Source of the DNA: Dictyostelium discoideum
Taxonomy: Eukaryota
Direction: 5' to 3'
Length of the DNA stretch: 64,000 nt
Assembly: GCA_000004695.1 (NCBI GenBank)
Contig: CM000151.3
Coordinates: 288,001-352,000, forward strand
The notes below the pieces were generated by a model. The model saw only the letters and a program-made list of their open reading frames with translations. It did no database searches and was not told where the DNA came from. Shown here piece after piece: positions 3,885-60,752 of the stretch. The position numbers and the translations under genes are program-made. Within the stretch, counting starts at the first letter, position 1. Each line of letters starts with the position of its first letter.

Positions 3885-3920
<36 letters not shown>

Positions 3921-9223: not shown

Positions 9224-9272
<49 letters not shown>

Positions 9273-11936: not shown

Positions 11937-12050
11937 CTATTTCTTTATTACTGTTGTGAAATATGGAATATTAATATTATTTATTTCTTGAATATATTCA
12001 TTATCATTAGTTTCAATTTTAATTTCTTTTAAAGTAATGTTATTTGATTT

Positions 12051-12126
<76 letters not shown>

Positions 12127-13916
12127 ATTGAAATATTATTTATTAAATTTTTAAATTCTTTAACAAAATCACAAACTAATTCGTTTTTATTGAATTCAAA
12201 TATTAATGAATATAATTGTAATTTAAAAATATTATTTAATATTAAATTAAATATGAATTTTAATTGATTTAATTCATTCAATTTAATTTTATAATGTCTA
12301 ATTGATGTTAATGGTGATGAAAATATATTATCAAATAAATATTGATTAATTGAAATAGGTTCTTGATGTAATTCATTACCGCTATAACTTGGTTTTGAAG
12401 AGTAAACAATGAAATCACTACCATATAAATATAAATATTTAATTGATTTATTATTTAATAAATTTGAAAATGTATTGATATTTAATAAACCACAACAATC
12501 AAATTCAATTCTTTCAATTGATGTATTTAATTCTGAAAATAATGGTTTAAATGAATTTGAAAATGATTCTATAGTTTCGTTTATTTTATTAGCAAAAATT
12601 TCATGATCAGCTCCCTTACAATCACGATAATATAAACCTTCATAATCAATTGGAGAATATTTTGAACTTACTGATGAGATATTTAAATTCTTTAAAGATT
12701 TACTTGTAATAAATGAATTGATCATTTGATTTAATTCTGTATTAATATTTTCAGAGTTACCCGATTCTGATTTACTATTATAAAATCTAATAAATCCCAT
12801 ATCCTCAGATAAGTTTGATAATATTTGAAAAGAGCTAATTGGTATTGTAATTGAATGTAAATTTTCAAATTGATTAACTTTGGCTAAATGGAGAGGTTCA
12901 ACAAATTCATCATTATCAGGTTCAATTTGTACTTTAATTGATTCAACTTGTTGACCTGAATTATCTGGATCAAATAATGCTGAATAATTGACATGTGTAG
13001 GCATATCACTACAAGTATCAGATCCATCATAAAATATATTTCTACCTTTGAAAATTTTGAATATCTTTACTGTTTCTTCATCATTACCTACTTCTCCATC
13101 AAAACCTGCAATTGATAAATTATTTAAATATAATTCAGTACATTTCTTACCACCTTTATCAGTATCATGATCACCTTCCTCCTCTTCAGAGTTTGGGCTA
13201 TAACCATTATCCAAACAAAAATCAATATTTAATTCTAATATTTTAAATAATTTTGATATGACTTCTGAATTTTCATTTGATACATATTCATGTATTCTAA
13301 ATAAAGTTGTTTTATTATTATTACTATCATAATCAGCATCAACATTAACTACAATTCTATTATAAAGTAATTGATTATTTTCAAATTTATTTTTAATTTC
13401 TTTAAAATCATCAATTGTAATCTTATATAAAAATAAATTGATTTTAAAATAATCATTGATTATTGATTCTTTGATTTTTATAATTGAAAACTCTTTATTA
13501 AAACTAATTTTATTTTGTTGATAATTATAATCTTCATCTTTAAAAATTAAATTATTTTTATCATATTGATTTTGATTATTATAATTTTCAATAAATGATT
13601 TATTTTTATTATTATAATTAATTTTTAACCAATGTTCAAATAATTTATTATCAATAATATTATTTGATATTGTTAATGATATAAAATTATACCACTTTTT
13701 TGAAACTAATATATAATTTAATATTTCATTTCTATAAAAATAAAATTTATTAATTTTATATATATTAATAGTATTATTATTTAAATTATTATTTTTATTT
13801 TTATTTTTTTTGCTAGTTAATAAATAGTTGATTATAGATTTTAAAATTTCAAAATCAATAATATCTTGAAATATTTTATTGTTATTATTTGTTTTTATTT
13901 TTTTACTTGTTGACAT
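11937..13916 (-). CDS. Paralog-array family member 4 (659 aa, intact), the only inverted copy; carries a (CAA)n-encoded polyQ tract of about 26 Q
   Basis: Intact ORF on the minus strand with the family motifs. A (TTG)n/(CAA)n microsatellite at 12050-12125 encodes QQQ...Q just before the C-terminal SNNITLKEIKI motif. Confidence 0.75.
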
Positions 13917-14771: not shown

Positions 14772-14945
14772 AAAAAAAAAAGAAGTTTTGTCAAAATACT
14801 CTCCATTAGTTTTTTCAAAAAAAAAAAAATGCACATTTTTTTTAAAAAAAATTACAGTAACAATAAATTACTATAAGCTGCTCGTAATATTTTACGAGGG
14901 CAGCACCAAAAAAAAAGTCCAGTAACTTTTACACTAAAAAAAAAA

Positions 14946-15115
14946 GATTGATGGTATTAAAATTTATTCAGTCATAGACACCACATTATTTAATATTCAA
15001 AAACCAACTGATTTTCAAGATGTTTATTATTCACCAAAACACAAAAAACATGGCATCAAATTGGAAGTTGTATGCAACGTTTCAGATGGAAAAATCATTT
15101 GGGTATCAAATGGTG

Positions 15116-15183
<68 letters not shown>

Positions 15184-15319
15184 AAGAAACTAATTTTTTT
15201 TTTTAATTTTAGAATTTTATGGTGGGTCTGAACACGATATTACTATTTCAAGACATTCAGGTTTGGTTGATGGTGAATTTAATTTAGAGGAAGATGAAAA
15301 AATTTTGGCTTTCTATTAA
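14946..15319 (+). pseudogene. Harbinger/PIF-type DDE transposase (DDE_Tnp_4) fragment, N- and C-terminally incomplete
   Basis: IDGIKIYSVIDTT...YYSPKHKKHGIKLEVVCNVSDGKIIWVSN(E)FYGGSEHDITISRHS matches the Harbinger core (aIDGThi..YynrKg.ysiNvq.vcD..g.i..v..GwpGS.HD..vl..S). A 104-nt intron (15108..15211) made mostly of a 68-nt poly(A) separates ...VSN from EFYGGSEHD. No upstream catalytic N-terminus, and it stops about 30 aa after the HD motif. Confidence 0.6.
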
Positions 15320-15444
15320 TTAATAGAAACACTTTATCGATTATAAATAAAAATATTAAAATAACTAAAGATAAAAATGAAAATTTATAAAAAAAATTTA
15401 AATAATCATAAATAAAAGATAAAAATAAAAAGATATAAAAAAGA

Positions 15445-15475
<31 letters not shown>

Positions 15476-15583
15476 ATTCTTGTCATCAGTATTGTTACTA
15501 TAATTAATCCATGAGTTTTTTAATTATTGAATTTATATTTGAGAGATTATTATTTAAATGACTAAGAATTTTTTATTTTTTTT

Positions 15584-16540
15584 TTACTTACTATCATTAT
15601 AATCAGTAGCAGTATAGTTTATTGGGTCATCTAGCATTGATTTTAATCTATTATTATCTAATTTTCCTTCAAAATTTTCAATTTCTTGAATTGTTGTCGG
15701 AACTGATTCTAAAGATACTTTTAATAATATTATTGAAGTTGAAACTTGTTCTTTTTCTTTTTCTTTTTCTGATTCAGTTAATATCTTTAATTTTATTATT
15801 AATTTACAAGTGGTAATTAATCTTTTTAATGTTGATCTTTCATTAACCTGATATATAGTTTTGAGGTTTTTAATTATTAGATCAATTGTTAATTTACTAT
15901 TATTACAACTACTACTATTATTATTATTATTATTATCATTACCAATGTTATTTAAATAACATAATAATCCTTTAAAAATATTATCATTTTTTGGAATTTC
16001 ATCTAACTCGATTGATTTCTCACCAAAATCAGTGTTATTTAATGATGTTTCTAATGATGTTGATGATGGTGAGTTTGATTTTTTTAATTCTAAATTCTTT
16101 GATTGTATTATTGCAGTTGATACATAAATTGGTGAAGAGTAATAATACCTTTGAATTTTGAAAAAGTTTCTATTAAATTTGAAATCATTTTTAATTATTT
16201 CAAATAATTTCTTTAAATAAATTAAAATTAAATCTTTACGCCAACTAGATTGATCAGACTCTTTACGCCAACAAGTTTCACCAAATTCTAAATATCTACA
16301 ATTTCTATAAGCTTTTTCTTTTAAAATACTAATTTGATTTGAATCTATTAGTTTAGTTATTGACGATACTGAATCGTAACTAAATGAATATTGGTTATAC
16401 ATAAATGAGAATATCTTTTTATAAATTGCTTTATTTCTAAACAATTTCCAAAATAATATTTCAATTGGTTCTATATTATCTGTAATTGTTAATTTTATTG
16501 AATGAATTAGTATTTTCTTTTCGTTCATGTTCTTCTTCAT
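15584..16540 (-). CDS. ORF1-family protein (318 aa), intact short copy; transposon-associated, function unknown
   Basis: Intact ORF MKKNMNEKKILIHSIKLTITDNIEPIEILFWKLFRNKAIYKKIFSFM.... An identical N-terminal 150 aa occurs in the longer degenerate copy at 55222..57782. Family fragments at 58300-58400 and 63450-64000. Bounded downstream by a truncated palindromic-MITE terminus (15470-15580). Confidence 0.6.
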   Translation of the reverse strand: MKKNMNEKKILIHSIKLTITDNIEPIEILFWKLFRNKAIYKKIFSFMYNQYSFSYDSVSSITKLIDSNQISILKEKAYRNCRYLEFGETCWRKESDQSSWRKDLILIYLKKLFEIIKNDFKFNRNFFKIQRYYYSSPIYVSTAIIQSKNLELKKSNSPSSTSLETSLNNTDFGEKSIELDEIPKNDNIFKGLLCYLNNIGNDNNNNNNSSSCNNSKLTIDLIIKNLKTIYQVNERSTLKRLITTCKLIIKLKILTESEKEKEKEQVSTSIILLKVSLESVPTTIQEIENFEGKLDNNRLKSMLDDPINYTATDYNDSK

Positions 16541-17424
16541 ATTCTCTTTTTCTTTTTTTTTACAATTTTAATCCTTTCAATTATTTCTTGTTTATTTAAG
16601 TGATTTATTTCTATACAATATGATTTTGCAATTTCTTTAATTGATTTTAAATTCTTTTTCTCTAATTCACAATTATTATCATTATCTTTATCATCTTATT
16701 AATTAAAGATGACAAAAATAATTTAAATATATAAATTATTTTTCATTGTTGTGGTGGTGGGGGAAATTAAAAAATAAAAAAAAAAAAATATAAAAAAATA
16801 TAAAAAAAAATATAAAAAAAAAAATAAAAAAAAAAAAAAACAAATAAAAAACATTTTTATGGTGAAACGGATTTTATTTAGTTTTTTTTTTTTTTTTTTT
16901 TTTTTTCTATTTTATTTTTTTTTTTTACTATTTTATTAAATATTTATATTTAAAAAAAAAAAAAAAAAAAACATATAAAAAACATTTTGTAACACTTAAA
17001 AAAAAAAAAAAAAAAAAAAAAATTCAGCGACTCTATTATGGTTTTAAAAAAAAAATGGTAAGTCATAAATATTCACTTAAAATAAACAAAAGTTTTACAA
17101 TCTTTATTATGATATACTAATATTAATTTTAGAAAAAAAAAAAAAAAAAAAAAAATTTTAGTTTAGATTAAAAAATTTTAAAAATAAAGGAATTAAATGT
17201 TATTGAAAATTAAATAAAATTAAATTTATTTATTTATTTATTTATTTATTTATTTGTTTATTTATTTTTTATTTATTTAATGGAATTCCGTTTATATATT
17301 TTTTTTTAATGAAATTTCATTAATTTTTTTTCAATGAAATTTCAAACAAAGAAATAAGCAAATATATATTATTTGTTTATTTCTTTGTTTGAAATTTCGT
17401 TGAACATTATTTTTAAACGAATTC

Positions 17425-17550
17425 AAATGACTACATAACCCCTGTAAGCGGTTAGTATCCCCTTGTAATCCTTACAACCAGTGTAGCCCACAAATCCGGC
17501 CATTCGTCTTACAGGCCTATTAGCCGCTTACAGGGGTTACGTAGTCATTT
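17425..17550. repeat. GC-rich (about 55% GC) 126-bp palindromic element: 27-bp inverted repeats around a 71-bp core with three CTTACAGG motifs
   Basis: AAATGACTACATAACCCCTGTAAGCGG ... CCGCTTACAGGGGTTACGTAGTCATTTT. A second copy in inverse orientation lies at 54262-54400 with 5 substitutions, none compensatory. It stands out sharply in AT-rich surroundings. Confidence 0.55.
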
Positions 17551-18086
17551 TGCTCGTTGGGGGTGTAATTAATATTTATTTATATTTTTATTATGGGCTA
17601 ATTCTTTTTTTATTATTTAATGATAATTTTATATTAAAATATGATATATTATTAATTAATATTAATTTGTTAAAAATTTTATTATATTATAATCTCTTTA
17701 TAAAAAGTGAGAAATTATGTGTCATAAAATATCTAATAAAATAATGAATTTTCTAAAATTTTTTTTTCCAGCGAATAATAAAAAAAAAAAAACTGTTTTT
17801 GTTAACAATGGGGTGAAGATGATTTATTGTAATTTTTTAATAATTTTAGTTCTGTTTTTTTTTTAATGGAGATATGAGAGAGATTATTATGATATTTTGA
17901 ATGATTGGATCATAGTAATAAAACAATATTTTTAATTTTTTTCTTTTTTTTTTTTCTTTTCATTCTTTTTTTTTTTCTTTTCATTCTTTTTTTTTAGTAC
18001 TTAATCTTTTTTTTTTTCATCTTTCAAAATAAAAAAAAAATATTTATATAAATTTTAACTTTAAATTAAAATAAATAAATTTTAGA

Positions 18087-18509
18087 ATGGCTGAAGAATA
18101 TCATCAATTGAAAATTACAATATTTACTGATAAAGGGAGATCAACAATAAGTGGTTTTGGTAAGTTAATTAGAATTATTAATTTATAAATATTTAATTTT
18201 AGTTTATATATTAAAAAATGTAACATTTAATTTCATTCTTCTGGCTTTTTTAAAAATATAGAGTATCCTCAACCTATATTACCTTATCCTGCACCATATA
18301 CTTTTAGATTTTTTCATTACGATATTGAAGGCCCAAATTTAACCAACAAAGAATTTAAAGTAAAAACAGGTAAAATTGAATACAAAGGAGAAGAATTTGA
18401 TATTCCTCCATCATCTAAGGGCTCATGGAGAAGAGAAGATAACCTATTCGATTTAATCTCTGTTACAATATATCCAAGTAGACAACCAAAAAAAGTTTTT
18501 CATTATTAG
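18087..18509 (+). CDS. Small two-exon gene (about 106 aa), hypothetical protein. Exon 1 is 18087..18159, intron 18160..18261, exon 2 18262..18509
   Basis: ATG..GGTTTTG|GTAAGTT donor and TATAG|AG acceptor. The spliced frame gives MAEEYHQLKITIFTDKGRSTISGFEYPQPILPYPAPYTFRFFHYDIEGPNLTNKEFKVKTGKIEYKGEEFDIPPSSKGSWRREDNLFDLISVTIYPSRQPKKVFHY*. A diverged paralog with the same exon/intron structure lies at 53330..53751 (-). Confidence 0.6.
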
Positions 18510-18766
18510 ATCTTAAAAACAGATCTGAAACAATGAAAACAAAAATAAAAAATTTTAAAATTTTTTCATAATTGAATTGATATAAAAAAAAAATTATGAT
18601 TAAAAAAAAAATATGTGTGGAAAAAAAAAAAAATTAAAAATAAAAAATATATTTGTTTATGGTGTTATGTTTTTTGGTAAGGTTTAAAGTGATCAAAAAA
18701 TTATCATTCAAACTTGTATACCAGTGTTCGACCTTTTTCCACATTTGGAAAAAAAGGGTGTCTTTT

Positions 18767-19420
18767 TTAATTTCCCTTCCATTCCATGTTTTTGTTTGAT
18801 TGAGTTGTGATTCCACCATTATTGGAAGTTGTTGCAGCTTCATGTGTTGATCTAACTTCGGTGGTAGAGTGCTCGATTGCTTTTCCAACTAGGTCATCTG
18901 TTGATTTTCTTTTGGTTATTTCGATATCCCTTTGCAATTTATTTTTACTTGAGAGTTTGGTGGCCTCTATTCTAGAAGTAGGCTCAGTATTGTAATAAGC
19001 CTTTATAATAGCAGAATGATTATCTGCTTTATAATGATTACTGATGTGCTGTTGACACTGGTTTTGATTAATCATATGAGAGACACCATCTTCATCTTTG
19101 TTAAGCCTAACCTTCTCTATAATCTTCACTAAGTCTTTTGGGTACCAATTTTTTCTTTTTATCTTTATCAATATAAAACACTTCTTTAATAGTTGCCGTA
19201 CCATATTCTACATTCTCAACAACATACTGTTTATCCAAAATGTTTTTCCAATAGCTTATATTTTGTCCACTCAATTTGGTATTATGAAATTTATAATCTA
19301 TTTTAAATTTTACATCTTCGTCATATTTTTCCAAGAGTTTTTTTAATTTATTTTTATTATTTTTTCAATTTCTGTTGCAGAAAGTTGATTATTTAATTTA
19401 TTGTCTTTACTGAAGACCAT
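18767..19420 (-). pseudogene. ORF-T: repeat-associated coding region split across two overlapping frames (19107..19334 and 18767..19204); probable transposon ORF with a frameshift
   Basis: The MEKYDEDVKFKIDYKFHNTKLSGQ...LVPKRLSEDYREG frame ends where the frame-shifted MVRQLLKK...RLNKDEDGVSHM...EATTSNNGGITTQSNKN frame is already open. A third upstream segment (MVFSKDNKLNNQLSATEIEKIIKIN*) needs another +1 shift. A mirror copy at 60955..61697 (+) has the same frame breaks. Confidence 0.4.
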
Positions 19421-19620
19421 TTTTTGGAACGAAAACTTTAAAAAAATAAAAAAATAAAAAAAAAAATACTTTTTTTTTTTAATTTTTTTTTTTATATTTT
19501 TTTTTTTATATTTTTTTTTTTTAAATTTTTTTTTTTAATTTTTTTTTTTTATTTTATTTTTTTAAAGTTTCGAACAATTATATATAAAAAAAAAGTAAAA
19601 GATATCCCTTCGGTTAATTA

Positions 19621-19689
<69 letters not shown>

Positions 19690-19698
<9 letters not shown>

Positions 19699-20155
19699 TT
19701 CGAAATGTTTAAACAATCATACAGTTTAAAATTAAATAAATTGTTTTAAACCACCACTTTTTTTGAACACATGAAAATAAATAAGATATAAAAATAATAA
19801 GATAAAAAAAGATTTTTTTTTTTTTTTTTTTTTATTTTATAATTATTCTTGTCGTCAGTATTGTTACTATAATTAATCCCATGAGTTTTTTTTATTATTA
19901 TTTTTAATTCTTTTATATTTGAGATGATTATTATTAATTAAATGACTTTGAGTTTTTTTTTTTATTTTTCTATGCCCAAAATTACCATATTAATTTCAGC
20001 AGCCATATTAATTTCAGCCTAAAATAGTTGGTCTGTGCATGCCAAAATTAATATGGCTGCTGAAATTAATATGGTAATTCTAGCAGACATAAGTCCCATG
20101 CCAAAATTACCATATTAATTTCAGCAGCCATATTAATTTTGGCATGGGACACACA
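19690..20155 (+). repeat. Terminus of the palindromic-end MITE family, capping the 15.4-20.2 kb duplicated block
   Basis: Matches the 3955-4420 subterminal and terminal sequence, including the double palindrome ...CCATATTAATTTCAGCAGCCATATTAATTTCAGC...GTCCCATGCCAAAATTACCATATTAATTTCAGCAGCCATATTAATTTTGGCATGGGAC. Preceded by (AAT)n at 19621-19690. Confidence 0.55.
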
Positions 20156-21069
20156 CTACTACTATGATTCAACCAAATCAATATTCAACATTTAAATTAG
20201 AATTAATAGTATTAAAACAAGAATTTTCATTAATGTTCATTAAATTTAGAACGTAGTTTGAAATCATAGAATCATGACCCAACCACTGACTAGTAGTTTA
20301 AATCCATTCTCAAGTAATCATTCCAAATTATCACCACCAGCACCAAATGCAACATCAACTACAACATCAAATCAGCAGCATCTCAATCGAAACAATTGCA
20401 GCTCATGAATCAATTCTTACTCTTCAAATCTAGCCAGTAAATGGTATCTCTGAAAATGAGACAAAATCTCAACAAGCCACCCCAGAGAATTAGATTAGAG
20501 CTCTGAAGTTGATTGATGCAACCCATTGTTATCACAGGTGGTAAATCTGTAACAATATTTTCAACCATATGGTTAATATGAATAAATTTTATTATCTATA
20601 ATTAAAGGTTGTTGATTTAATCTATCGTTATTATTAATTTTATCTATTGATAAATCTAGTAGTATATCTCTTATCTCGTCTAATCTTTTTTTTGCAGTTT
20701 TTTGTGAAATTTTAAAAATAAATGATAAATTATCCATAGTAGGATAATTTTTTATAAAATAAAAAAATAATAATTTGAAATTTTTATTTTATTTTATTTT
20801 TCTTCGTTTATTGATCCATATATTTTAATAAAGGAAATTTTATCTACCCAAAATAAGGAGCGAAATTCCCTTTAATATATTCTCTAAGGAATTATATGTT
20901 TCCATTCTTTAATAATAATTCATTAAAATTAAAAAAAAAAAAAAAATTTAAAAAAAATAAAAAAAAAAAAAGACTTTTAAAATTGAATATGAAAATGGTG
21001 ATAATTATGCCATTATTGAATTTGTACTCTATGATAAATTTAATGGTCAAGAAATTTTAAACAAATGGG

Positions 21070-21112
<43 letters not shown>

Positions 21113-21489
21113 TTTTCTTTAATTTTACTGGCAATTAATATCTATCACACCACCAAAAAAAATACCCCATAATTTACATTCCTTTTAAAAAATTATGTAA
21201 AATGTATGTAAATTCATATTATTTTTTGAGTAGTTTTTTAATTTTTTAAGTTGTCGTGGAATTTTTTTATTTTATTTTTTTTTGTTTTTTTATTTTGTTT
21301 TTTTTTTTTTTATTTATTTTTTTTAATTTTTTATTTTCATTAATCCAAAAGGCTTTAAGTATCGATTTCTCTTTTATTTATTCTATTATATTATGTTCTA
21401 ATTTTTGTTGTAGACTTGTTCCGCAACTACAACATTAACTGTGTCACACCCAAACAAATAAAATTAAAAAAAAGATAAAAATAATAATA

Positions 21490-23472
21490 ATGTCAACAAA
21501 AAAAAAAATTAAAACAGATAATAATAATAAAATATTTCAAGATTTTATTGATTTTGAAATTTTAAGATCTTTAATCAATTATTTATTAATCAACAAAACA
21601 AATAATAATAATAATAATAATAATAAATATAAAATTAGTAAATTTTATTTACATAGAAATGAAATATTGAATTATATATTAGTTTCAAAAAAGTGGTATA
21701 ATTTTATATCATTAACAATATCAAATAATATTATTAATAATAAATCATTTGAACATTGGTTAAAAATTAATAATAATAATAATAATAAATCATTTACTAA
21801 AAATTATAATAATCAAAATCGATATGATAAAAATAATTTAATTTTTAATAACAAATATAGTAAAAATAAAATTGGTTTTAATAAAGAATTTTCAATTATA
21901 AAAATCAAAGAATCAATAATCAAAGATTATTTTAAATTCAATTTATTTTTAAGTAATATTACAATTGATGATTTTAAAGAAATTAAAAATAAATTTGAAA
22001 ATAATCAATTAGTTTATAATAGAATTGTTGTTGATATTAAAACTGGCTATTATGGTGAAGGGAATCAAGATGAAATTTTATTTAAAATACATGAATATGT
22101 ATCAAATGAAAATTCAGAAATCATATCAAATTTATTTAAAATATTAGAATTAAATCATGATTTTATGATAATCGATGACTTTCATCCAAAATCTAAAGAA
22201 GAGGATGAAGAGGATGAGGAGGATGATGAAAATGATAAAGGTAGTAAGAAATGTACTGAAATATATTTAAATAATTTATTGGTTTCCGGTTATGATCTAA
22301 CTATGGATGAGGATGAAGATAGAGAATCATTAAAGATATTCAAAATATTTAAAAGTAAAAATATATTTTATGATGGGTCTGGTATTGCTAGTGATATTCC
22401 AACACATGTCAATTATTCAGCATTGTTTGATCCTGATAATTCAGGTCAACAAGTTGAATCGATTAAAGTAAAAAATGAACTTGAAGATCCTGATTTTGTA
22501 GAACCACTCCATTTAATCAAAGTTAATCAATTTAAAAATTTACATTCAATTACAATACCAATTAATTCATTTCAAATATTATCAAACTTATCCGAAGAAA
22601 TGGGATATTTTAGTATCGATTGTTTTAAATCTGGTTTTGGTCTTTCAGATAATATGAAATCAGAATTAAATCAAATGATCAATTCATTCATTACAAGTAA
22701 ATCTTTAAAAAATTTAAAAATAACATCTATTAGTACAAAAGAAGATCCAATTGATTATGATGCTTATTATGATGAAGGTGATCTTCAAACTTTTATGAAT
22801 CAAATAAATGAACCTAAAGAATCATTTTCAAATTGTTTCAAACCATTATTTTCAGAATTAAATACATCAATTGAAAGAATTGAATTTGATTGTTGCGGTT
22901 TATTAAATATCAATACATTTTCAAATTTATTAAATAATAAATCAATTAAATATTTATATTTATATGATAGTGATTTCTTTTTTTCTTCATTAAAAACAAG
23001 TGATGGTGGTAGTGATGATTGTGGTATTGATGATGATGGTGGTAGTGATGATTGTGGTATTGATGATGATGGTGGTAGTGATGATTGTGATGCATATCAA
23101 AAAATTATTTCCATTAATCAATATCTATTTGAAAATATATTTTCATCACCATTAACATCAATTAGACATTACAGAATTAAATTCAAAGAATTAGATGAAT
23201 TAAAATTCATATTTAATTTAATATTAAATAATATTTTTAAATTACAATTATATTCATTAATATTTGAATTCAATGAAAACGAATTAGTTTATGAATTTGT
23301 TAAAGAATTTAAAAATTTAATAAATAATATTTCAATACAAGAACAACAACAACAACAACAAAAATCAAACAACATAAATTTAAAAGAAATTAAAATTATA
23401 ATAAATGATGACTGTTTAGAAGAATTAAATAATCCATATTTCAAAACAACAATAAAGAATAGCCCATATTAA
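21490..23472 (+). CDS. Paralog-array family member 5 (660 aa, intact); contains an internal 3x (DDCGIDDDGGSD) tandem expansion
   Basis: Intact ORF with the family motifs. A 39-nt unit is repeated three times at 22990-23100 inside the variable region that precedes the conserved ISINQYLF motif. Confidence 0.75.
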   Translation: MSTKKKIKTDNNNKIFQDFIDFEILRSLINYLLINKTNNNNNNNNKYKISKFYLHRNEILNYILVSKKWYNFISLTISNNIINNKSFEHWLKINNNNNNKSFTKNYNNQNRYDKNNLIFNNKYSKNKIGFNKEFSIIKIKESIIKDYFKFNLFLSNITIDDFKEIKNKFENNQLVYNRIVVDIKTGYYGEGNQDEILFKIHEYVSNENSEIISNLFKILELNHDFMIIDDFHPKSKEEDEEDEEDDENDKGSKKCTEIYLNNLLVSGYDLTMDEDEDRESLKIFKIFKSKNIFYDGSGIASDIPTHVNYSALFDPDNSGQQVESIKVKNELEDPDFVEPLHLIKVNQFKNLHSITIPINSFQILSNLSEEMGYFSIDCFKSGFGLSDNMKSELNQMINSFITSKSLKNLKITSISTKEDPIDYDAYYDEGDLQTFMNQINEPKESFSNCFKPLFSELNTSIERIEFDCCGLLNINTFSNLLNNKSIKYLYLYDSDFFFSSLKTSDGGSDDCGIDDDGGSDDCGIDDDGGSDDCDAYQKIISINQYLFENIFSSPLTSIRHYRIKFKELDELKFIFNLILNNIFKLQLYSLIFEFNENELVYEFVKEFKNLINNISIQEQQQQQQKSNNINLKEIKIIINDDCLEELNNPYFKTTIKNSPY

Positions 23473-23481
23473 CCATCAGTA

Positions 23482-23523
<42 letters not shown>

Positions 23524-23570
23524 AAACTTGTTTTCAAACATACTCTTTAATATTAACAAATAATGTCAAC

Positions 23571-23625
23571 AAATAAATTAAAAAACAGATAATAATAATA
23601 CAATATTTTAAAATTTAATTTTTTT
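23571..23625 (+). pseudogene. N-terminal stub of a family paralog truncated just left of the transposon TIR
   Basis: AACAAATAATGTCAACAAATAAATTAAAAAACAGATAATAATAATACAATATTTT matches leader + MSTNK.K.DNNN.IF, then is lost. The matching C-terminal stub (LNNIFKLQLYSLKFE) lies at 29095-29150 on the other side of the transposon. Confidence 0.45.
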
Positions 23626-23895
23626 TTTTTTTTTTTTATATAAATAAATAATTTACCTTTTGATTTGGAAATATAATTTATTTTATTTTGTTTGTTGTAG
23701 GGAATTTTCCATAAAATTTCACTACAGTAGCGTAGTGAATTTTATTATTTAATTTCACTACAGTAGCGTAGTGAAAAAAAAAAATCACTGACCTTAAATT
23801 TTTTTTTTTTTCAAAAAACAAATAAAGTTTATTAAATTGAAATTTTATTTTTTGTTTTAATTATTATTTTATTTATTTTTATTATAATTATTGTT

Positions 23896-23935
<40 letters not shown>

Positions 23936-24076
23936 CAATTTTTTTTTTTTAAATTTTTTTCAATTTTTATTTGTTTATTAAATTGTAATTTTATTTTTTG
24001 TTTTAATTATTATTTTATTTATTATTATTGTTAATTTTTTTTTTTTTTCAATTTTTTTTTTTTTAATTTATTTTTA

Positions 24077-24385
24077 TTAATTTATTTTTATTAACTCCCT
24101 GAGTTGTTCAATTGCTTGATTTACCATATCACTGTAAACACTGCACACAATTGAATTTTTTCTAGCTTTGTTACCTCTGGTGCATTTGATGTTTTTGCAT
24201 TTTCCTTTGTATACAAAAAAGTCCAAATATAATTCGTTTTCTATTACAGTTTTTACACAATGTTGGTGAAATTGTTTTGATTTTAATTCTAATGCTTCTA
24301 ACATCATATTTGGATTTTTAACGATTAAAGCATCACCACTATTTACATATAGTACTTTGGCTGCTTTTTCGAGGAATTTAGTCAA
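24077..24385 (-). CDS. Hypothetical ORF (102 aa) inside the Tdd-4-like element
   Basis: Open frame LEKAAKVLYVNSGDALIVKNPNMMLEALELKSKQFHQHCVKTVIENELYLDFFVYKGKCKNIKCTRGNKARK.... A possible short upstream exon at 24386-24480. No recognisable domain. Confidence 0.3.
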   Translation of the reverse strand: MTKFLEKAAKVLYVNSGDALIVKNPNMMLEALELKSKQFHQHCVKTVIENELYLDFFVYKGKCKNIKCTRGNKARKNSIVCSVYSDMVNQAIEQLRELIKIN

Positions 24386-24842
24386 ATTTTCCTCTGAATC
24401 TAACTATTCTTCATTGCCATATTCAATGGCTAAATTTCTTAAGAGTTTTATCGAATCTATTAATTCTTCGATCATTCTTTTTTTTTGAAATTTTTTTTTA
24501 TTTTGTTTTTTCAATTTTTTTTTTTTATTTTGTTTTTTCAATTTTTTTTAAGTTTTATTTTTTTTTATTTTTTTTTATTTTTTTTAACAAATGTAATTTT
24601 TTTTTATTTTTTTCAATTTTTTTTTTTTTTTAATTTTTAATTTTTTTTTTTTTTTTTAATTTTTTGTGTTGATTTGTGTTTTTTTTGTTTTTTTGATTTG
24701 GCCACTTGTTTTTATTTTCTAATTTCCCCATACCCCCTTCTATTAATTGCAACCAAATCAAGTTCTAATTTTTGTGTCCTTGTTAACTTTGTTTTTGCAA
24801 CTTTTTTTGAAGGTATCACATTAACGATTTTTCCTATTGATG

Positions 24843-52091: not shown

Positions 52092-53329
52092 AATCAAATC
52101 AAATCAAATCAAATCAAATCAAATCAAATCAAATCAAATCAAATCAAATCAAACCAAATCAAATCAAATCAAATAAAATAGAATCTAATCAAATTAAACA
52201 AAATCAAAAAAAAAAAAAAAAAAAAAAAAAATAAATAAAATTGGATAATGCAAATTAATCTTTATTTTATTTTTAAATTATTATTTATTATTATTGTTTT
52301 TTTTATTATTTTACCTTTATTTTTTTTTTTTTTTAATTAATAATCGTCAAGATATTACAAAAAAAAAATAAAAAATAAAAATTAAATTTAGTAATAGTTT
52401 AAAAAATAAAGAGTATTTTTATTATTTATTTTTTTTATTTTAAAAATTTTACCAAAACAAAGTCTGCTAGTTTTTTTTTACTTTTTATTTTTAGCCTTAT
52501 TTTTATAAAAATAATTAGTCGTTAAAACATATCATTTATGTTCAATATACAAACTATACTTACTCAGAATCTACAAATTTTTATCCGTTAATTGTGGTTA
52601 TAAAGTGTTTTTAATTTCAAATATTATATAAAAAAAATAAAATTTTAAAAATAACCAATTTGTAATAAAAACAAATAAAAATTATGTAACTATTTGTAAA
52701 ATAAACTTTTCAAATAAATAATATTAATAATTATAGAAAAAGATTTTTAAGTTATCATTATTTTTTTTTTTTTTTTTGGTTTTGTTATTTTTTTTTTAAT
52801 ATGAAATTTGTAATATTATTAAAATGGTATTTTTAGATGATAACTGTTAAAAAATGTGGTTAAATTTTATGAAACTTTTATAAAAACTTAGTGTGTTTAT
52901 TTGATTTTTTTTTTTGTTTTTATTTTTTTTTCTCACTTTAGTAAAAAAAAAAATAAAAAAAAAAAATAAAAAATTAATGAATAATAAATAAATTGAATTG
53001 GGTGACCCATAATTAATAAATAATTAAAAAAAAAAATTTTTTGCTGACCCTGGTTAATTGAAAAAAAAAAAAATGGAAAAAATATTATATTAATATGGAA
53101 GTTTTTAAAAAAAACATGGAATGGAAGGGAAATTAAAAAAAACACCCTTTTTTTCCAAAAGTGGAAAAAGGTCGAACACTGGTATACAAGTTTGAATGAT
53201 AATTTTTTGATCACTTTAAACCTTACCAAAAAAACACATATTTTTTTTTTAATCATAATTTTTTTTTTATTACAATTCAATTCTGAAAAAATTTTATAAT
53301 TTTTTATTTTTGTTTTCATTGTTTCAGAT

Positions 53330-53751
53330 CTAATAATGAAAAACTTTTTTTGGTTGTCTACTTAGATATATTGTAACAAAGATTAAATTCATTAAGTTAT
53401 CTGCTCTTCTCCATGAGCCCTTAGATGATGGAGGAATATCAAATTCTTCTCCTCCGTATTCAATTTTACCTGTTATTACTTTAAATTCTTTATTGGTTAA
53501 AATTGGGCCTTCAATTGTGTATCCAGAAAGTCTAAAAGTATATGGTGCAGGATAAGGTAATATAGGTAGAGGATACTCTATATTTTTAAAAAAGCCAGAA
53601 GAATGAAATTAAATGTTTATTTTTTAATATATAAACTAAAATTAAATATTTATAAATTAATAATTCTAATTAACCTACCTGTACCACTTATTGTTGATCT
53701 CCCTTTATCAGTAAATATTGTAATTTTAAATTCAGGCACTTCTTCAGCCAT
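53330..53751 (-). CDS. Paralog of the small two-exon gene (about 106 aa): exon 1 53751..53679, intron 53578..53678, exon 2 53577..53330
   Basis: MAEEVPEFKITIFTDKGRSTISGT | EYPLPILPYPAPYTFRLSGYTIEGPILTNKEFKVITGKIEYGGEEFDIPPSSKGSWRRADNLMNLIFVTIYLSRQPKKVFHY*. The 73-nt exon 1, the phase-1 intron and the stop position match the copy at 18087..18509, while amino-acid substitutions keep the frame. Confidence 0.6.
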
Positions 53752-54261
53752 TCTATAATTTATTTATTTATTTTAATTTAAAGTTAAAATTTAAATAAAT
53801 ATTTTTTTTTTATTTTGAAAGATGAAAAAAAAAGATTAAATACTAAAAAAAAAAGAATGAAAAGAAAAAAAAAAAAGAAAAAAAAGAAAAAAATTAAAAA
53901 TATTGTTTTATTACTATGATCCAATTATTCAAAATATCATAATAATCTCTCTCATATCTCCATTAAAAAAAAACAGAACTAAAATTATTAAAAAATTACA
54001 ATAAATCATCTTCACCCCATTGTTAACCAAAACAGTTTTTTTTTTTAATATTGGCTGAAAAAAAAATTTTAGAAAATTCATTATTTTATTAGATATTTTA
54101 TGACACGTAATTTCTCACTTTTAATAAAGAGATTGTAATTTAATAAAATTTTTAACAAATTAATATTAATTAATAATATATCATATTTTAATATAAAATT
54201 ATCATTAAATAATAAAAAAAGAATTAGCCCATAATAAAAATACAAATAAATATTAATTACA

Positions 54262-54400
54262 CCCCCAACGAGCAAAATGACTACGTAACCCCTGTAAGCG
54301 GCTAATAGGCCTGTAAGACGAATAGCCGGATTTGTGGGCTACACTGGTTGTAAGGATTACAAGGGCTACTAACCGCTTATAGGGGTTATGTAGTTATTTG
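54262..54400. repeat. Second copy (inverse orientation) of the GC-rich palindromic element
   Basis: Reverse complement of 17425-17560 with 5 substitutions, three of them in the stem arms (CTTATAGG, TTATGTAGTT). Confidence 0.55.
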
Positions 54401-54850
54401 AATTCGTTTAAAAATAATATTCAACGAAATTTCAAACAAAGAAATAAACAAATATATTTATATATAAATTTGCTTATTTCTTTGTTTGAAATTTCATTGA
54501 AAAAAAATAATAAAATTTCATTAAAAAAAATAAATAAACGGAATTCCATAAAATAAATAAAAAATAAATAAACAAATAAACAAATAAATAAATAAATAAA
54601 TAAATTTAATTTTCAATAACATTTAATTCCTTTATTTTTAAAATTTTTTAATCTGAACTAAAATTTTTTTTTTTTTTTTTTTTTCTAAAATTAATATTAG
54701 TATATCATAATAAAGATTGTAAAACTTTTGTTTATTTTAAGTGAATATTTATGAATTACAATTTTTTTTTAAATGTTACAAATGTCGCTGTATTTTTTTA
54801 AGTGTTACAAAATGTTTTTTATTGGTTTTTTTTTTTTTTTTTTTAAATTT

Positions 54851-54883
<33 letters not shown>

Positions 54884-55221
54884 CTAAATAAAATCCGTTA
54901 CACCATAAAAATGTTTTTTATTTGTTTTTTTTTTTATTTTTTTTTTTATATTTTTTTTTATATTTATTTATTTTTTTTTTTTTTTTATTTTTTAATTTCC
55001 CCCACCACCACAACAATGAAAAATAATTTATATATTTAAATTATTTTAATCATCTTTAATTAATAAGATGATAAAGATAATGATAATAATTGTGAATTAG
55101 AGAAAAAGAATTTAAAATCAATTAAAGAAATTGCAAAATCATATTGTATAGAAATAAATCACTTAAATAAACAAGAAATAATTGAAAGGATTAAAATTGT
55201 AAAAAAAAAGAAAAAGAGAAT

Positions 55222-57782
55222 ATGAAGAAGAACATGAACGAAAAGAAAATACTAATTCATTCAATAAAATTAACAATTACAGATAATATAGAACCAATTG
55301 AAATATTATTTTGGAAATTGTTTAGAAATAAAGCAATTTATAAAAAGATATTCTCATTTATGTATAACCAATATTCATTTAGTTACGATTCAGTATCGTC
55401 AATAACTAAACTAATAGATTCAAATCAAATTAGTATTTTAAGAGAAAAAGCTTATAGAAATTGTAGATATTTAGAATTTGGTGAAACTTGTTGGCGTAAA
55501 GAGTCTGATCAATCTAGTTGGCGTAAAGATTTAATTTTAATTTATTTAAAGAAATTATTTGAAATAATTAAAAATGATTTCAAATTTTATAGAAACTTTT
55601 TCAAAATTCAAAGGTATTATTACTCTTCACCAATTTATGTATCAACTGCAATAATACAATCAAAGAATTTAGAAATTTAGAAATTATTTATAAATGAATT
55701 CAATTACCAACCAACAAAAACAGATCTTTTAAATTCAATCGAGACAGGTTCAAATAAAATCATCAAATATATATTAGAATTAAAAAAATCAAACTCACCA
55801 TCATCAACATCATTTGAAACATCATTAAATAACACTGATTTTGGTGAGAAATCAATCGGGTTAGATGAAATTCCAAAAAATGATAATATTTTTAAAGGAT
55901 TATTATGTTAAATAACATTGGTAATGTAATAATAATAATAATAGTAGTAGTTGTAATAATAGTAAATTAACAATAATTAAAAACCTCAAAACTAAATATC
56001 AGATTAATGAAAGATCAACATTAAAAAGATGAATTACCACTTGTAAATTAATAATAAAATTAAAGATATTATCTGAATCAGAAAAAGAAAAAGAAAAAGA
56101 ACAAGTTTCAACTTCAATAATATTATTAAAAGTATCTTTAGAATCAGTTCCAACAACAATTCAAGAATTGAAAATTTTGAAGTAAAATTAGATAATAATA
56201 GATTAAAATCAATGCTAGATGACCCAATAAACTACACTGCTACTGATTATAATGATAGTGAAATTAAAATTTTTATAAAGAAATCATTAATATTTATATT
56301 ATTCAACAACAAATATTACAAATTCTTTATATTTACATCAATATTATAATAATGAAATTAGTAACGTTAATTTAAATTTCATTAAAGAAATTCATTTTAT
56401 TGAAATTGCATTTAGATTTGGAAATTGTGAAATTTTATCAAAGGTTACCGATGTAAATAATATATATGGACTATTCAATTCTAAAACACTATTATTACCA
56501 AATAATAATAAAGATATTAGTAGTTTAGGAAATTATAATATTCTATTCTCACATTGTTGTAATGATAATAAAGAGAAAAAGATGAAATTCATGGATCAAC
56601 TATCAATTGAAAGTGTATACCAAACAACATTATCCTACTATATGTTCATTATGCTCATAGTTCATAATGATATTGAACTATTGAGATATTATTGCAGGAA
56701 TAGGGGAATGAATTTTAATTTTTATATTGATTTTCAAAGTTTAGATGTTCAACCAACTTATTATATAGAATCAACAGAGATGTTAGATTATTTATTTAAT
56801 AACCATATTAGATACTTTTTAGATCCTTTTTATACTGGGAATTATAGTACACATTTTAAAAGTTTAATACTATTAAAACATTTTGAATCATTATTGTTTA
56901 AAACAGGACAGCTTCAATTAGAGGAAAATGATAATCTTGTTTGCTTTATAAAAAAAGAAGATAAAAGATATAATAATATTCAAAATAAAAATTCAAGAAA
57001 TATCAAGATTTTGTTGATTAATCATTTTTCATCAAATCCATCAATATACTATAATGAAAGATTAGATCATCAATTATTTTTAGTACTCACCAGCAGTAAT
57101 GACGATTCATCATCATCTTCATCATCACCACCAATCAACTTTGAAGTATTAAAAGATTTAGCAATCGATGCACTCAAATTTGATATTAATCTATTTCATT
57201 CAAGAACATTAACAAAAAATCATTATACCAAGAATTATTTGAAATTTATAGAATGGATGTTTTTAAACTATAATGATGAAATGAAAAAAGGTGGTCATTT
57301 TTATCATAATGAAGTCTACTATTTCCATTTATTAATGTCAATTGATCAATTTGATTATAATAATAATAGTAACGATTTAAAAGAAAAAGGTGGTACTACT
57401 ATTAATATTGAAAAAAATGCTTAAATTAATTATTCTAGTTAAAGAATTAACACCTTATTTATTTGAAGCAAATAATTTTAAATTTTTAAATTGGTTTTTA
57501 ACAAACATTAAAGATTATCATCATCAATTAAAATTATCATCATCATCACTCAAAACAAAACCAGATAAGGAATCAACTACGGTAGGAGATATTGTTTGTT
57601 CAATTTTATCTTTTATTTCAAGCAATTCAAGATTAAAAATACTTGAATATATTCAAAACTTTAGTTTCATTTTAAAGAATAAACCAAATAATGGAGTTTT
57701 AAATCCTGGTCAATTTTATTTTTATCACTTTCTTGTTCAATTAATATTTCAGAATTTCTTTTACAATTCATTCCAATCATGA
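55222..57782 (+). pseudogene. Long degenerate copy of the ORF1-family gene (ORF pieces 55222..55680, 56582..57424, 57390..57782)
   Basis: The first 152 aa are identical to 15584..16540. After that the frame breaks repeatedly, but the coding-like composition continues for about 2.5 kb. It ends at a truncated palindromic-MITE terminus (58040-58100). Confidence 0.5.
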
Positions 57783-58998: not shown

Positions 58999-59021
58999 CA
59001 ATAAATTTTTAAAATTGAAAG

Positions 59022-60596: not shown

Positions 60597-60752
<156 letters not shown>

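What the first reader, a model, noticed from the sequence alone, without database searches (positions are those of the whole stretch)
18087..18509. Small intron-containing gene duplicated with the block (copies at 18087..18509 + and 53330..53751 -) and evolving under apparent constraint
Both copies keep the ATG, the 73-nt first exon, GT..AG phase-1 intron (about 100 nt, itself more than 95% identical), and stop codon, while differing at about 20 amino-acid positions. Examples are HQLKIT versus VPEFKIT, FRFFHYDIEG versus FRLSGYTIEG and KGEEF versus GGEEF. Open frames maintained in both after divergence argues that it is a real protein-coding gene (about 106 aa, Pro/Tyr-rich N-terminal half, no recognised domain) carried inside a repeat block. 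That is unusual cargo.
Basis: seen in the sequence. Interest (0 to 1): 0.5.

Follow-up and report, generated by a model that had tools for sequence, protein, structure and literature searches.

The report
Fast-diverging duplicated stalk gene staC
The two copies are already-known, very highly expressed stalk-cell genes of the social amoeba Dictyostelium (staC and its twin, from the small gp24/"csb" family), and their protein-coding parts have diverged several times faster than the surrounding DNA, which suggests selection for change rather than for conservation.

Summary
Both copies (18087-18509 +, 53330-53751 -) have a 73-nt exon 1, a 102/101-nt phase-1 GT..AG intron and a 106-aa ORF, with 18 amino-acid differences.

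The interpretation needs three corrections.
1. These are annotated D. discoideum chromosome 2 genes: DDB_G0271196 (staC, a published c-di-GMP/DIF-inducible stalk marker) and DDB_G0271178. Each reaches about 20,000-27,000 TPM in stalk cells.
2. They do have a recognised domain. Pfam PF05720 matches at E 1e-33 and 1e-28, and UniProt calls them "csb family". The founding members are csbA/csbB (gp24). DdCAD-1 itself lacks this domain.
3. They are not simply constrained. Exons differ at 9.4% of sites against about 3% for 1.6 kb of flanks plus intron (p = 2e-6). With two more paralogs (DDB_G0271326, DDB_G0271320), all six pairwise dN/dS values are 1.7-5.5. Mean pN/pS is 2.5 (bootstrap P = 0.002), and 27 of 29 variable codons change the amino acid. 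Frame and core residues are preserved.

The "repeat block" is a roughly 3-kb segmental duplication present four times, not a mobile element carrying cargo.

The best reading is recent duplication followed by diversifying selection on clustered positions of an abundant small beta-barrel protein. Its function is unknown. The genes are known; the selection signature appears unreported in the papers searched.

The parts
18087..18159 (+). Copy A (staC, DDB_G0271196), exon 1: 73 nt, from the ATG to codon 25 position 1
   Evidence: The spliced product is 100% identical to P0001.
18160..18261 (+). Copy A intron: 102 nt, phase 1, GTAAGT..ATATAG. It has a GTAAC branch-point-like site followed by a pyrimidine tract
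   Evidence: All family members examined have an intron at the same position.
18262..18509 (+). Copy A exon 2: 248 nt including the TAG stop
18506..18528 (+). 8-bp stem-loop that overlaps the stop codon (UUAGAUCU-UAAAAAC-AGAUCUGA, -6.8 kcal/mol). It is conserved in A, C, D, L1_g3, L1_g1 and L1_g4, and lost in copy B through a 13-nt deletion
53679..53751 (-). Copy B (DDB_G0271178), exon 1: 73 nt
   Evidence: The product is identical to P0002.
53578..53678 (-). Copy B intron: 101 nt, GTAGGT..ATATAG
53330..53577 (-). Copy B exon 2: 248 nt including the stop
15582..18796 (+). Arm A of the inverted segmental duplication. It holds the neighbour ORF (15584-16540, minus strand, 318 aa), the shared divergent intergenic/promoter region, staC and about 290 nt of 3' flank
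53107..56269 (-). Arm B of the inverted segmental duplication. The neighbour ORF is interrupted here: 55222-55680 gives 152 aa, followed by about 93 extra nt relative to arm A
17504..18086 (.). About 580-bp region between staC and the divergently transcribed neighbour gene, presumed to be the stalk/cup promoter. About 96-97% identical to the copy B equivalent
   Evidence: Neighbour gene limits, identity. The promoter role is inferred from published staC promoter-lacZ work; it was not mapped here.

Best explanation
SHOWN. The two copies are the Dictyostelium discoideum chromosome 2 genes staC (DDB_G0271196) and DDB_G0271178. Each encodes a 106-aa single-domain protein of the gp24/contact-site-B ('csb', Pfam PF05720) family. 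By inspection I saw no signal peptide or membrane segment. The confident AlphaFold model is a small eight-stranded all-beta domain. Published data show that staC is switched on by c-di-GMP/DIF-1 signalling in stalk and late cup cells. Each transcript makes up about 2-2.7% of stalk mRNA.

SHOWN. A roughly 3-kb unit (the gene, its promoter and the start of a neighbouring ORF) has been copied by segmental duplication to four places: A and B in this window, and DDB_G0271326 and DDB_G0271320 about 200 kb away.

SHOWN AS A PATTERN, INFERRED AS A CAUSE. Since duplication, the coding exons have accumulated amino-acid replacements 2.5 to 4 times faster than synonymous sites, the intron or the flanks. 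The replacements fall in four or five clusters: residues 2-8, 24-30, 41-45, 82-91, plus single sites. Meanwhile the frame, the splice sites and long invariant blocks are untouched (KITIFTDKGRSTISG, LPYPAPYTFR, GEEFDIP, SKGSWR, SRQPKKVFHY). I read this as diversifying (positive) selection on exposed positions of a folded, functional, very abundant protein. That is a set of variants binding or facing something that itself varies.

INFERRED, WEAK. The role is probably that of a stalk/cup structural, adhesive or protective component.
For: IDENTITY. Searches give exact protein matches and the UniProt name 'csb family protein'. One search gives PF05720 at E 1.6e-33 and 2.1e-28. One search shows csbA/csbB (Glycoprotein 24A/B) are 42-46% identical paralogs.

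EXPRESSION. Searches give TPM in cup, stalk, spore and vegetative cells. DDB_G0271178 is about 16k, 26k, 0.1k and 1. staC is about 10k, 23k, 0.1k and 1. [quoted passage not shown]

DIVERGENCE, A VERSUS B.
- 30 of 321 nt differ, giving 18 amino-acid changes and only 2 synonymous-only codons. dN is 0.111, dS is 0.065 and dN/dS is 1.69.
- Exons differ at 30 of 314 sites against 48 of 1589 in non-coding DNA (odds ratio 3.4, p = 2e-6), and against 11 of 881 in the neighbour ORF (p = 2e-10).
- The excess holds separately at A/T-only sites and at G/C-involving sites (each p = 0.01).
- There are 0 indels in the CDS against 20 indel events in non-coding DNA.

DIVERGENCE, FOUR PARALOGS.
- Pairwise dN/dS is 1.66-5.49, with intron mismatches of only 1-5 per 102 nt.
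- 27 of 29 variable codons are nonsynonymous.
- Minimum changes by codon position are 19, 20 and 11.
- Mean pN is 0.092 against pS 0.036 (bootstrap P = 0.0018).
- Variable residues are clustered along the sequence (P = 0.006).

OTHER SUPPORT. The derived codon states are mostly unique: at 11 of the 20 codons that differ, A's codon state occurs in none of the six other family copies held as DNA, and the same count holds for B. The model is confident (pLDDT 83.8, pTM 0.77). The duplicated unit occurs four times.
Against: - For the A/B pair alone, dN > dS is not significant (bootstrap P = 0.08, Fisher 0.21). The case rests on pooling four paralogs and on using the intron and flanks as the neutral yardstick.
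- AT-rich non-coding DNA may mutate or align differently from exons. This was only partly controlled.
- Three codons (5, 7, 43) show B sharing states with C or D against the main (A,B),(C,D) grouping. Against the more distant relative P0004, sites 41, 50 and 59 give conflicting polarities. Some gene conversion or parallel change has therefore occurred.
- Four codons differ at all three positions, which could reflect multi-nucleotide mutation events that inflate dN/dS.
- No population data, site-model likelihood test or 3D mapping of the variable residues was possible.
- The function is not known. The 'adhesion' label of the family rests on the 1987-1990 gp24 work, and that name is also used for the unrelated DdCAD-1.
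Confidence: 0.6

Rival explanations
1. Relaxed constraint. After duplication the copies became redundant. Because stalk genes are expressed only in the occasional social stage, and in cells that die, purifying selection is weak. Replacements then drift to fixation (the 'Red King' process).
For: De Oliveira et al. 2019 conclude that this is the general pattern for Dictyostelium social/prestalk genes. Expression is strictly developmental. dN/dS for A versus B alone, and for C versus D, is not significantly above 1. Against the more distant relative P0004, omega is about 1.2 and not significant.
Against: Relaxation can raise dN only up to the neutral rate. Here pN is 2.5 times pS across the subfamily (P = 0.002), and exon divergence is 3.4 times non-coding divergence (p = 2e-6). 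Codon positions 1 and 2 change more often than position 3. None of the four copies has a stop or a frameshift, although 30 random substitutions leave an ORF intact only 6% of the time and indels are common next door. Long invariant blocks persist. Both copies are transcribed at about 2% of stalk mRNA.
Confidence: 0.15
2. Patchy ectopic gene conversion. Short tracts copied from diverged csb-family paralogs into the exons (introns being too different to take part) created clustered multi-nucleotide differences, without any selection for change.
For: Differences come in tight clusters, and four codons differ at all three bases. The family is multi-copy and partly tandem. Some states are shared in a mosaic way: B shares GTG at codon 5 with C, GAA at codon 7 and GGA at codon 43 with D, and I50/I59 with P0004.
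Against: At 11 of the 20 A/B-differing codons, A's state is absent from all six other family copies held as DNA. The same is true of B's state at 11 codons, and at 5 codons neither state is seen elsewhere. Donors only 35-80% identical would bring in many synonymous differences as well, yet only 2 of 29 variable codons are synonymous-only. Introns of the staC subfamily are 95-99% identical, so conversion between these four copies would not be confined to the exons.
Confidence: 0.15
3. A mutational cause: locally elevated or multi-nucleotide mutation in the exons (higher G+C content, transcription-associated damage), producing more differences in coding than in non-coding DNA.
For: Exons are more G+C-rich. 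G/C-involving sites differ about 7 times more often than A/T sites in the flanks. The genes are extremely heavily transcribed. Triple-base codon differences resemble multi-nucleotide events.
Against: The excess persists within both composition classes: A/T-only sites at 4.3% against 1.5%, and G/C-involving sites at 19.8% against 9.9%, each p = 0.01. The intron is transcribed just as heavily and sits between the exons, yet has only 2 substitutions in 101 nt. A mutational process would not favour replacement over synonymous changes, or positions 1 and 2 over position 3.
Confidence: 0.05
4. One reading: an unclassified gene under purifying constraint, carried as cargo by a repeat or mobile element.
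For: The ORF, ATG, splice sites and stop are kept in both copies. The surrounding region is rich in repeats and has a thug-S transposon fragment abutting copy A.
Against: The domain and family are recognised. dN/dS is above 1. The block has no terminal or inverted repeats, only A/T low-complexity runs. It has no Pfam-recognisable transposase or other transposon domain. The thug-S piece adjoins only copy A, and its counterpart lies 6.9 kb from copy B.
Confidence: 0.03

Closest known systems
csbA / csbB (Glycoprotein 24A / 24B, 'contact site B protein') of D. discoideum: the founding members of Pfam PF05720
   Same: The domain covers the whole protein. Size is about 100 aa. Identity is 42-46%. 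The invariant residues G17, S19, S22, G23, P34, G48 and G67 are shared. csb-type genes in the L001 cluster have the same short exon 1, a roughly 100-nt phase-1 intron and exon 2. csbA and csbB genomic DNA itself could not be retrieved. I saw no signal peptide. The family was found only in group-4 Dictyostelium.
   Different: staC-type genes form a separate subfamily, 75-83% identical among themselves. They carry a 4-residue N-terminal extension (MAEE/MTEE) and a conserved SRQPKKVFHY tail. They are expressed in stalk and late cup cells at very high levels. csbA/csbC are discussed in the literature as early, aggregation-stage genes. The staC copies are dispersed as 3-kb segmental duplicates rather than sitting in the csb tandem cluster.
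DdCAD-1 (cadA; PDB 1YHP / 2B1O), the Ca2+-dependent adhesion molecule also called gp24
   Same: Only the historical name (gp24, 'contact sites B') and the Pfam label 'Dicty_CAD'. By inspection staC has no signal peptide, and DdCAD-1 is published as lacking one (abstract).
Gene families with 'accelerated evolution' of exons after duplication, for example snake-venom PLA2 isozymes and conotoxins (from my own knowledge of that literature)
   Same: Recently duplicated small genes whose protein-coding parts diverge faster than their introns and flanks. Replacement changes exceed silent changes, and a conserved scaffold carries variable patches.
   Different: There is no evidence that the staC proteins are secreted toxins or effectors. 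I saw no signal peptide. The family is tiny (four members in this genome). The intron-versus-exon contrast is robust only within the staC subfamily, not across the whole csb family once AT-rich background identity is allowed for.
tgrB1/tgrC1 allorecognition genes of Dictyostelium
   Same: Lineage-specific, duplicated, rapidly diversifying developmental genes in group-4 dictyostelids. Copies lie in rearranged, repeat-rich DNA.
   Different: The Tgr proteins are large, polymorphic cell-surface proteins (Ig-like/TIG-domain transmembrane proteins, from my own knowledge), and their diversity is allelic and driven by structural turnover at one locus. The staC proteins are 106-aa proteins in which I saw no membrane-spanning segment. 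The diversity shown here is between paralogs within one genome, and allelic diversity was not examined.
Hcp / phage tail-tube proteins and PilZ c-di-GMP-binding barrels (structural neighbours only)
   Different: Scores are borderline, and Foldseek finds nothing with E <= 0.001. Sequence identity is 3-17%. The PilZ RxxxR motif is absent, and only a loose resemblance (GRSTISG / GESTISG) to D/NxSxxG exists. There is no evidence of ring or tube assembly.

Membership tests
csb / gp24 family (Pfam PF05720 'Dicty_CAD') | Full-length match to the PF05720 profile above the curated cut-off | tested here: met
   copy A scores 115 bits (E 1.6e-33, profile positions 1-82 of 82) and copy B scores 98.6 bits (E 2.1e-28), against a cut-off of 23 bits. 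csbA and csbB score 137 and 126 bits.
csb / gp24 family (Pfam PF05720 'Dicty_CAD') | Single-domain protein of about 100 aa with the family's invariant residues | tested here: met
   in the 17-sequence alignment G17, S19, S22, G23, P34, G48 and G67 are invariant and present in both copies. Lengths range from 99 to 119 aa.
csb / gp24 family (Pfam PF05720 'Dicty_CAD') | Shared gene structure: short exon 1 ending just after the conserved SG(x) codons, a roughly 100-nt phase-1 intron, and one long exon 2 | tested here: met
   the window copies A and B, L004 copies C and D, and L001 g1, g2, g3, g4 and g6 all have the intron at the same position (86-108 nt).
csb / gp24 family (Pfam PF05720 'Dicty_CAD') | Cell-cell adhesion activity, or presence at contact sites B | not testable with these tools
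   This needs antibody, adhesion or knockout assays. The family's functional label is historical, and the name gp24 is also applied to the unrelated DdCAD-1.
DdCAD-1 (cadA) family | Beta/gamma-crystallin-like N-domain (PF08964) plus membrane-binding C-domain (PF14564) | tested here: not met
   One search shows DdCAD-1 has these two domains and not PF05720. One search shows staC has only PF05720.
DdCAD-1 (cadA) family | Sequence or fold similarity to PDB 1YHP / 2B1O | tested here: not met
Transposable-element cargo | Terminal inverted or long terminal repeats, target-site duplications, or a transposase/RT gene bounding the duplicated unit | tested here: not met
   One search finds only A/T low-complexity repeats at the block ends. 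One search finds no Pfam domain in the co-duplicated ORF. One search shows the thug-S fragment adjoins copy A only.
Positively selected (diversifying) duplicate gene family | Nonsynonymous rate exceeds the synonymous rate | tested here: met
   all six pairwise dN/dS values are 1.66-5.49. Mean pN/pS is 2.54 (codon bootstrap P = 0.0018). Individually, 4 of the 6 pairs have P < 0.05. A versus B alone has P = 0.08.
Positively selected (diversifying) duplicate gene family | Coding divergence exceeds divergence of linked, presumably neutral, DNA (intron and flanks) | tested here: met
   9.4-9.6% against 2.75-3.0% (p = 1e-7 to 2e-6). The difference holds within both base-composition classes.
Positively selected (diversifying) duplicate gene family | Site-specific omega > 1 under likelihood models after excluding recombination, and a McDonald-Kreitman excess of fixed replacements | not tested
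PilZ-type c-di-GMP receptors | RxxxR and D/NxSxxG binding motifs on a six-stranded beta-barrel | tested here: not met

The most novel reading that the evidence does not exclude
The four staC-type genes may encode a deliberately diversified set of extremely abundant stalk and cup proteins locked in an evolutionary arms race. Candidates for the other side are microbes or predators that attack the fruiting body, or other amoeba genotypes (recognition or conflict in the sterile caste). That would make them a clear case of adaptive, not merely relaxed, protein evolution in Dictyostelium 'altruist' tissue. A still bolder reading is not excluded but is very unlikely (below about 5%): the PF05720 barrel is PilZ-like or Hcp-like and binds c-di-GMP, the signal that induces staC.
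Probability: 0.3. Interest if true: 0.6.

Novelty: already known. Interest (0 to 1): 0.35.

Why it matters
The genes, their family and their expression are already in the databases and the literature, so as a gene discovery this is ordinary.

What appears to be new is the evolutionary pattern. I found no mention of the csb family in any evolutionary context in the searchable library. Four recent duplicates, together making up several percent of stalk-cell mRNA, have changed about a quarter of their residues much faster than linked silent DNA.

The current view is that Dictyostelium social and stalk genes evolve quickly only because selection on them is diluted. A well-supported case of dN >> dS in stalk-specific genes would be a counter-example, and a concrete handle on what the stalk and cup tissues interact with.

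There is also a practical point for annotators. The Pfam name 'Dicty_CAD' invites a wrong functional transfer from DdCAD-1, which does not contain the domain.

Tried and rejected
1. 'The intron is more conserved than the exons across the whole family.' Raw identities suggested this. Shuffled AT-rich introns already align at about 0.6 identity, so the claim holds only within the staC subfamily. I dropped it as a family-wide statement.
2. The intron hosting a known RNA. Rfam at gathering thresholds finds nothing in or near the gene.
3. Homology to DdCAD-1. Rejected.
4. PDB sequence searches with the single protein and with the profile. No hits.
5. Foldseek against the PDB and against viral models. 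No hit with E <= 0.001. The AFDB library was unavailable.
6. Retrieving AX4 csbA/csbB loci and the original DDB_G0271326 gene model. Not on record. The revised 106-aa model was retrievable.
7. Further copies in the window. tblastn finds only A and B.
8. Mobile-element hallmarks at the block ends. None.
9. Pfam on the co-duplicated neighbour ORF, the thug-S-associated ORF and the eight large paralogous ORFs. No domains.
10. Base composition as the cause of the exon excess. Rejected.
11. Assembly artefact. Rejected.

Full report
WHAT IS AT THE COORDINATES. The window is about 20% G+C. It matches D. discoideum AX4 chromosome 2, the 8.48-Mb contig carrying the exact proteins.

Copy A (18087-18509, +) and copy B (53330-53751, -) were read directly and spliced in silico. 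Each has a 73-nt exon 1, a phase-1 GT..AG intron of 102 or 101 nt, a 248-nt exon 2 and a 106-aa product. The introns differ by two substitutions and one single-base indel. The coding sequences differ at 30 of 321 nt, which gives 18 amino-acid differences.

THE GENES ARE KNOWN. Copy A is 100% identical to DDB_G0271196 and copy B to DDB_G0271178. UniProt names both 'csb family protein'.

DDB_G0271196 is staC. [quoted passage not shown] Its domain is listed as Dicty_CAD and its conservation as 'Ddis' only.

The cell-type RNA-seq table of Kin et al. 2018 gives the following TPM values:

| Gene | Cup | Stalk | Spore | Vegetative |
|---|---|---|---|---|
| DDB_G0271178 | 14,792-17,133 | 24,750-27,600 | 83-176 | about 1 |
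| staC | 7,400-11,767 | 20,151-24,212 | 76-152 | about 1 |

Each copy thus supplies roughly 2-2.7% of stalk mRNA. With 30 diagnostic differences the two can be told apart by reads, but I did not re-map reads or count junction reads myself.

THE DOMAIN AND THE FAMILY. Both proteins match Pfam PF05720 over its whole length, far above the cut-off.

A profile search of 1.8 billion representatives, and a second word-indexed profile search, found only about 20 relatives. All were about 100 aa and all came from group-4 Dictyostelium species. They include AX4 'contact site B protein / Glycoprotein 24A and 24B' (csbA, csbB) at 42-46% identity.

The Pfam name is misleading. The real DdCAD-1 was recovered from the PDB as 1YHP/2B1O with a probe sequence. 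It carries the Crystall_3 and Membrane_bind domains and no PF05720. The staC family profile does not find it, and neither does the structural model. 'gp24' is used in the DdCAD-1 literature for DdCAD-1 itself. The 'adhesion' label of the csb family therefore cannot be taken as established function.

STRUCTURE. An AlphaFold2 model built on a 17-sequence alignment is confident (pLDDT 83.8, pTM 0.77) and all-beta, with eight strands. No solved structure is close:
- Foldseek against the PDB gives no hit with E <= 0.001.
- Viral models give a best TM of 0.51.

The PilZ resemblance is tempting because staC is induced by c-di-GMP. However, the defining RxxxR motif is absent and the scores are weak, so I treat it as a remote possibility only.

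THE 'BLOCK'. Self-comparison shows an inverted duplication, 15582-18796 versus 56269-53107. Besides the gene, it contains the roughly 580-bp upstream region and a divergently oriented ORF. That ORF is 318 aa in arm A (15584-16540) and is interrupted in arm B. It has no Pfam domain.

Two further copies of a 2.1-2.7-kb core of this unit lie in locus L004. This locus comes from an independent assembly, ACTFIT / GCA_054883475.1, whose sampled 12.4-kb locus is 99.4% identical to the window (apparently the AX2-214 lab strain; my inference). Those copies carry DDB_G0271326 and DDB_G0271320, about 200 kb away in the same contig.

The block ends show only A/T low-complexity sequence, with no terminal repeats. 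A thug-S transposon fragment abuts arm A at 18787, but its counterpart lies 6.9 kb from arm B. This is segmental duplication in a repeat-rich region, not cargo of a mobile element.

CONSTRAINT OR THE OPPOSITE? A global alignment of the two arms gives these substitution counts:

| Partition | Substitutions / aligned sites |
|---|---|
| Exon 1 | 9/73 |
| Exon 2 | 21/246 |
| Intron | 2/101 |
| 2.4-kb upstream part | 66/2399 |
| 3' flank | 7/225 |

Overall that is 30/319 for the CDS against 75/2725 for the rest of the block (odds ratio 3.7, p = 1.2e-7).

After removing columns near indels, the comparison is as follows:
- Exons 30/314 against non-coding 48/1589 (odds ratio 3.4, p = 2e-6).
- Exons against the neighbour ORF, 11/881 (p = 2e-10).
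- A/T-only sites: 4.3% against 1.5%.
- G/C-involving sites: 19.8% against 9.9%.

The excess therefore holds within both composition classes.

Nei-Gojobori counts for A versus B give dN 0.111, dS 0.065 and a ratio of 1.69. Only two codons differ synonymously, and four codons differ at all three bases.

Adding paralogs C and D:
- All six pairwise ratios are 1.66-5.49, while the introns differ at only 1-5 of 102 sites.
- 27 of 29 variable codons change the amino acid.
- Minimum changes by codon position are 19, 20 and 11.
- Mean pN is 0.092 against pS 0.036 (codon bootstrap P = 0.0018).

Against the closest relative in a wild isolate (P0004, 62% identical), omega is still about 1.2 over the whole protein.

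There is also real constraint of another kind:
- The CDS has no indels, against 20 indel events in the adjacent non-coding DNA.
- All four copies keep an intact ORF, although 30 random substitutions would leave an ORF intact only 6% of the time.
- The variable residues are clustered (P = 0.006) between long invariant blocks.

The simplest reading is a conserved fold with positively selected patches.

RIVALS.
- Relaxed selection is the published general explanation for fast-evolving Dictyostelium social genes. It cannot push dN above the neutral rate.
- Gene conversion from other family members has probably contributed a little. Homoplasies occur at codons 5, 7 and 43 within the subfamily, and polarity conflicts at sites 41, 50 and 59 against P0004. 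But most derived codons are unique among the eight family copies I could examine as DNA, and diverged donors would also have brought in synonymous differences.
- An exon-targeted mutational process is contradicted by the spared intron and by the bias towards replacement changes.
- A/B alone is not individually significant for dN > dS (P = 0.08). The conclusion rests on the subfamily as a whole and on the intron/flank yardstick. No likelihood site models or population data could be run.

A CORRECTION TO MY OWN INTERIM IDEA. Raw identities suggested that the intron is more conserved than the exons throughout the csb family. Shuffling showed that AT-rich introns align at about 0.6 identity by chance. 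The claim is robust only within the staC subfamily.

LITERATURE CHECK. Searches for the gene identifiers, 'csb family', 'Dicty_CAD', and positive selection in Dictyostelium stalk genes found no report of this signature. The 2025 genome paper that supplied the new assemblies deals with the tgr genes and does not mention csb. The library is incomplete, so absence there is not proof of novelty.

VERDICT. The object is a pair of already-known genes of a known small family. The added value is twofold. The functional label borrowed from DdCAD-1 is unfounded. And the staC subfamily shows a consistent signature of diversifying selection, although no site-model, recombination or population tests could be run. 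That signature is moderately interesting for the debate on how 'altruist-tissue' genes evolve.

Noticed in passing
window 4311-4399, 20048-20136, 60037-60125: Three near-perfect palindromic hairpins match Rfam mir-7131 (94-99 bits on both strands). All three lie in a repeated segment (3836-4422, 19580-20151, 60014-60617). The published expression table annotates the gene next to staC as a thug-S transposon, so the miRNA family appears to be transposon-borne.
   Followed up: partly
window 18787-20151 and 60022-61578: A 98.6%-identical repeat abuts arm A of the duplication but lies 6.9 kb from arm B. It carries an ORF of 145 aa (18767-19204, -) or 178 aa (61161-61697, +) with no Pfam match. It is probably a thug-S fragment.
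   Followed up: partly
window 59021-59095 (-): A tRNA-Val(AAC) gene sits in the repeat-rich stretch between arm B and the thug-S-like repeat.
   Followed up: no
window 473-2452, 6765-8618, 9663-11516, 11937-13916(-), 21490-23472, 29314-31032, 35360-37456, 46485-48395: Eight paralogous ORFs of 572-698 aa, each a single uninterrupted reading frame, 78-94% identical in pieces. They account for the multi-copy repeat family seen across the window. The three I tested have no Pfam domain.
   Followed up: partly
window 15584-16540 (-) versus 55222-55680 (+) and 56582-57782 (+): The ORF co-duplicated with staC is an uninterrupted 318 aa in arm A. In arm B it is broken after 152 aa by about 93 extra nucleotides, and beyond the duplication boundary it continues into different sequence. 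The second assembly annotates 333 aa and 672 aa products respectively. One of the two is likely a truncated or chimeric copy.
   Followed up: partly
window 18506-18528; copy B equivalent around 53321-53333: An 8-bp stem-loop that includes the UAG stop codon (AGAUCU ... AGAUCU) is conserved in six family genes with varying loop length. Copy B has lost it through a 13-nt deletion between the two AGATCT repeats, yet is expressed as highly as staC.
   Followed up: partly
L001 6800-15169 (D. discoideum assembly GCA_054859355.1): A tandem cluster of six csb-type genes lies beside MCM6, a proteasome alpha subunit and profilin. g2 is frameshifted. g4 has an in-frame TAA. One copy (13374-13618) lacks exon 1, and a staC-like promoter segment is fused to its intron end. 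The annotated 102-aa protein P0019 is a chimera of g1 and g2.
   Followed up: partly
P0003 / P0026 versus P0027 / P0028 (DDB_G0271326, DDB_G0271320): The NCBI AX4 gene models of 119 aa and 204 aa end in unrelated sequence. The revised UniProt models and the second assembly give 106 aa ending in SRQPKKVFHY, so the original models appear mis-spliced at the 3' end.
   Followed up: yes
Pfam PF05720 versus PDB 1YHP: The Pfam family called 'Dicty_CAD / Cell-cell adhesion domain' does not match DdCAD-1, which has the Crystall_3 and Membrane_bind domains. The name invites wrong annotation transfer.
   Followed up: yes
codon 50 of copies A and B (window 18336-18338; 53501-53503): A, C and D carry an N-L-T sequon (N50) that copy B has lost (I50), as has the wild-isolate relative P0004. 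It would matter only if the protein enters the secretory pathway, for which there is no evidence.
   Followed up: no
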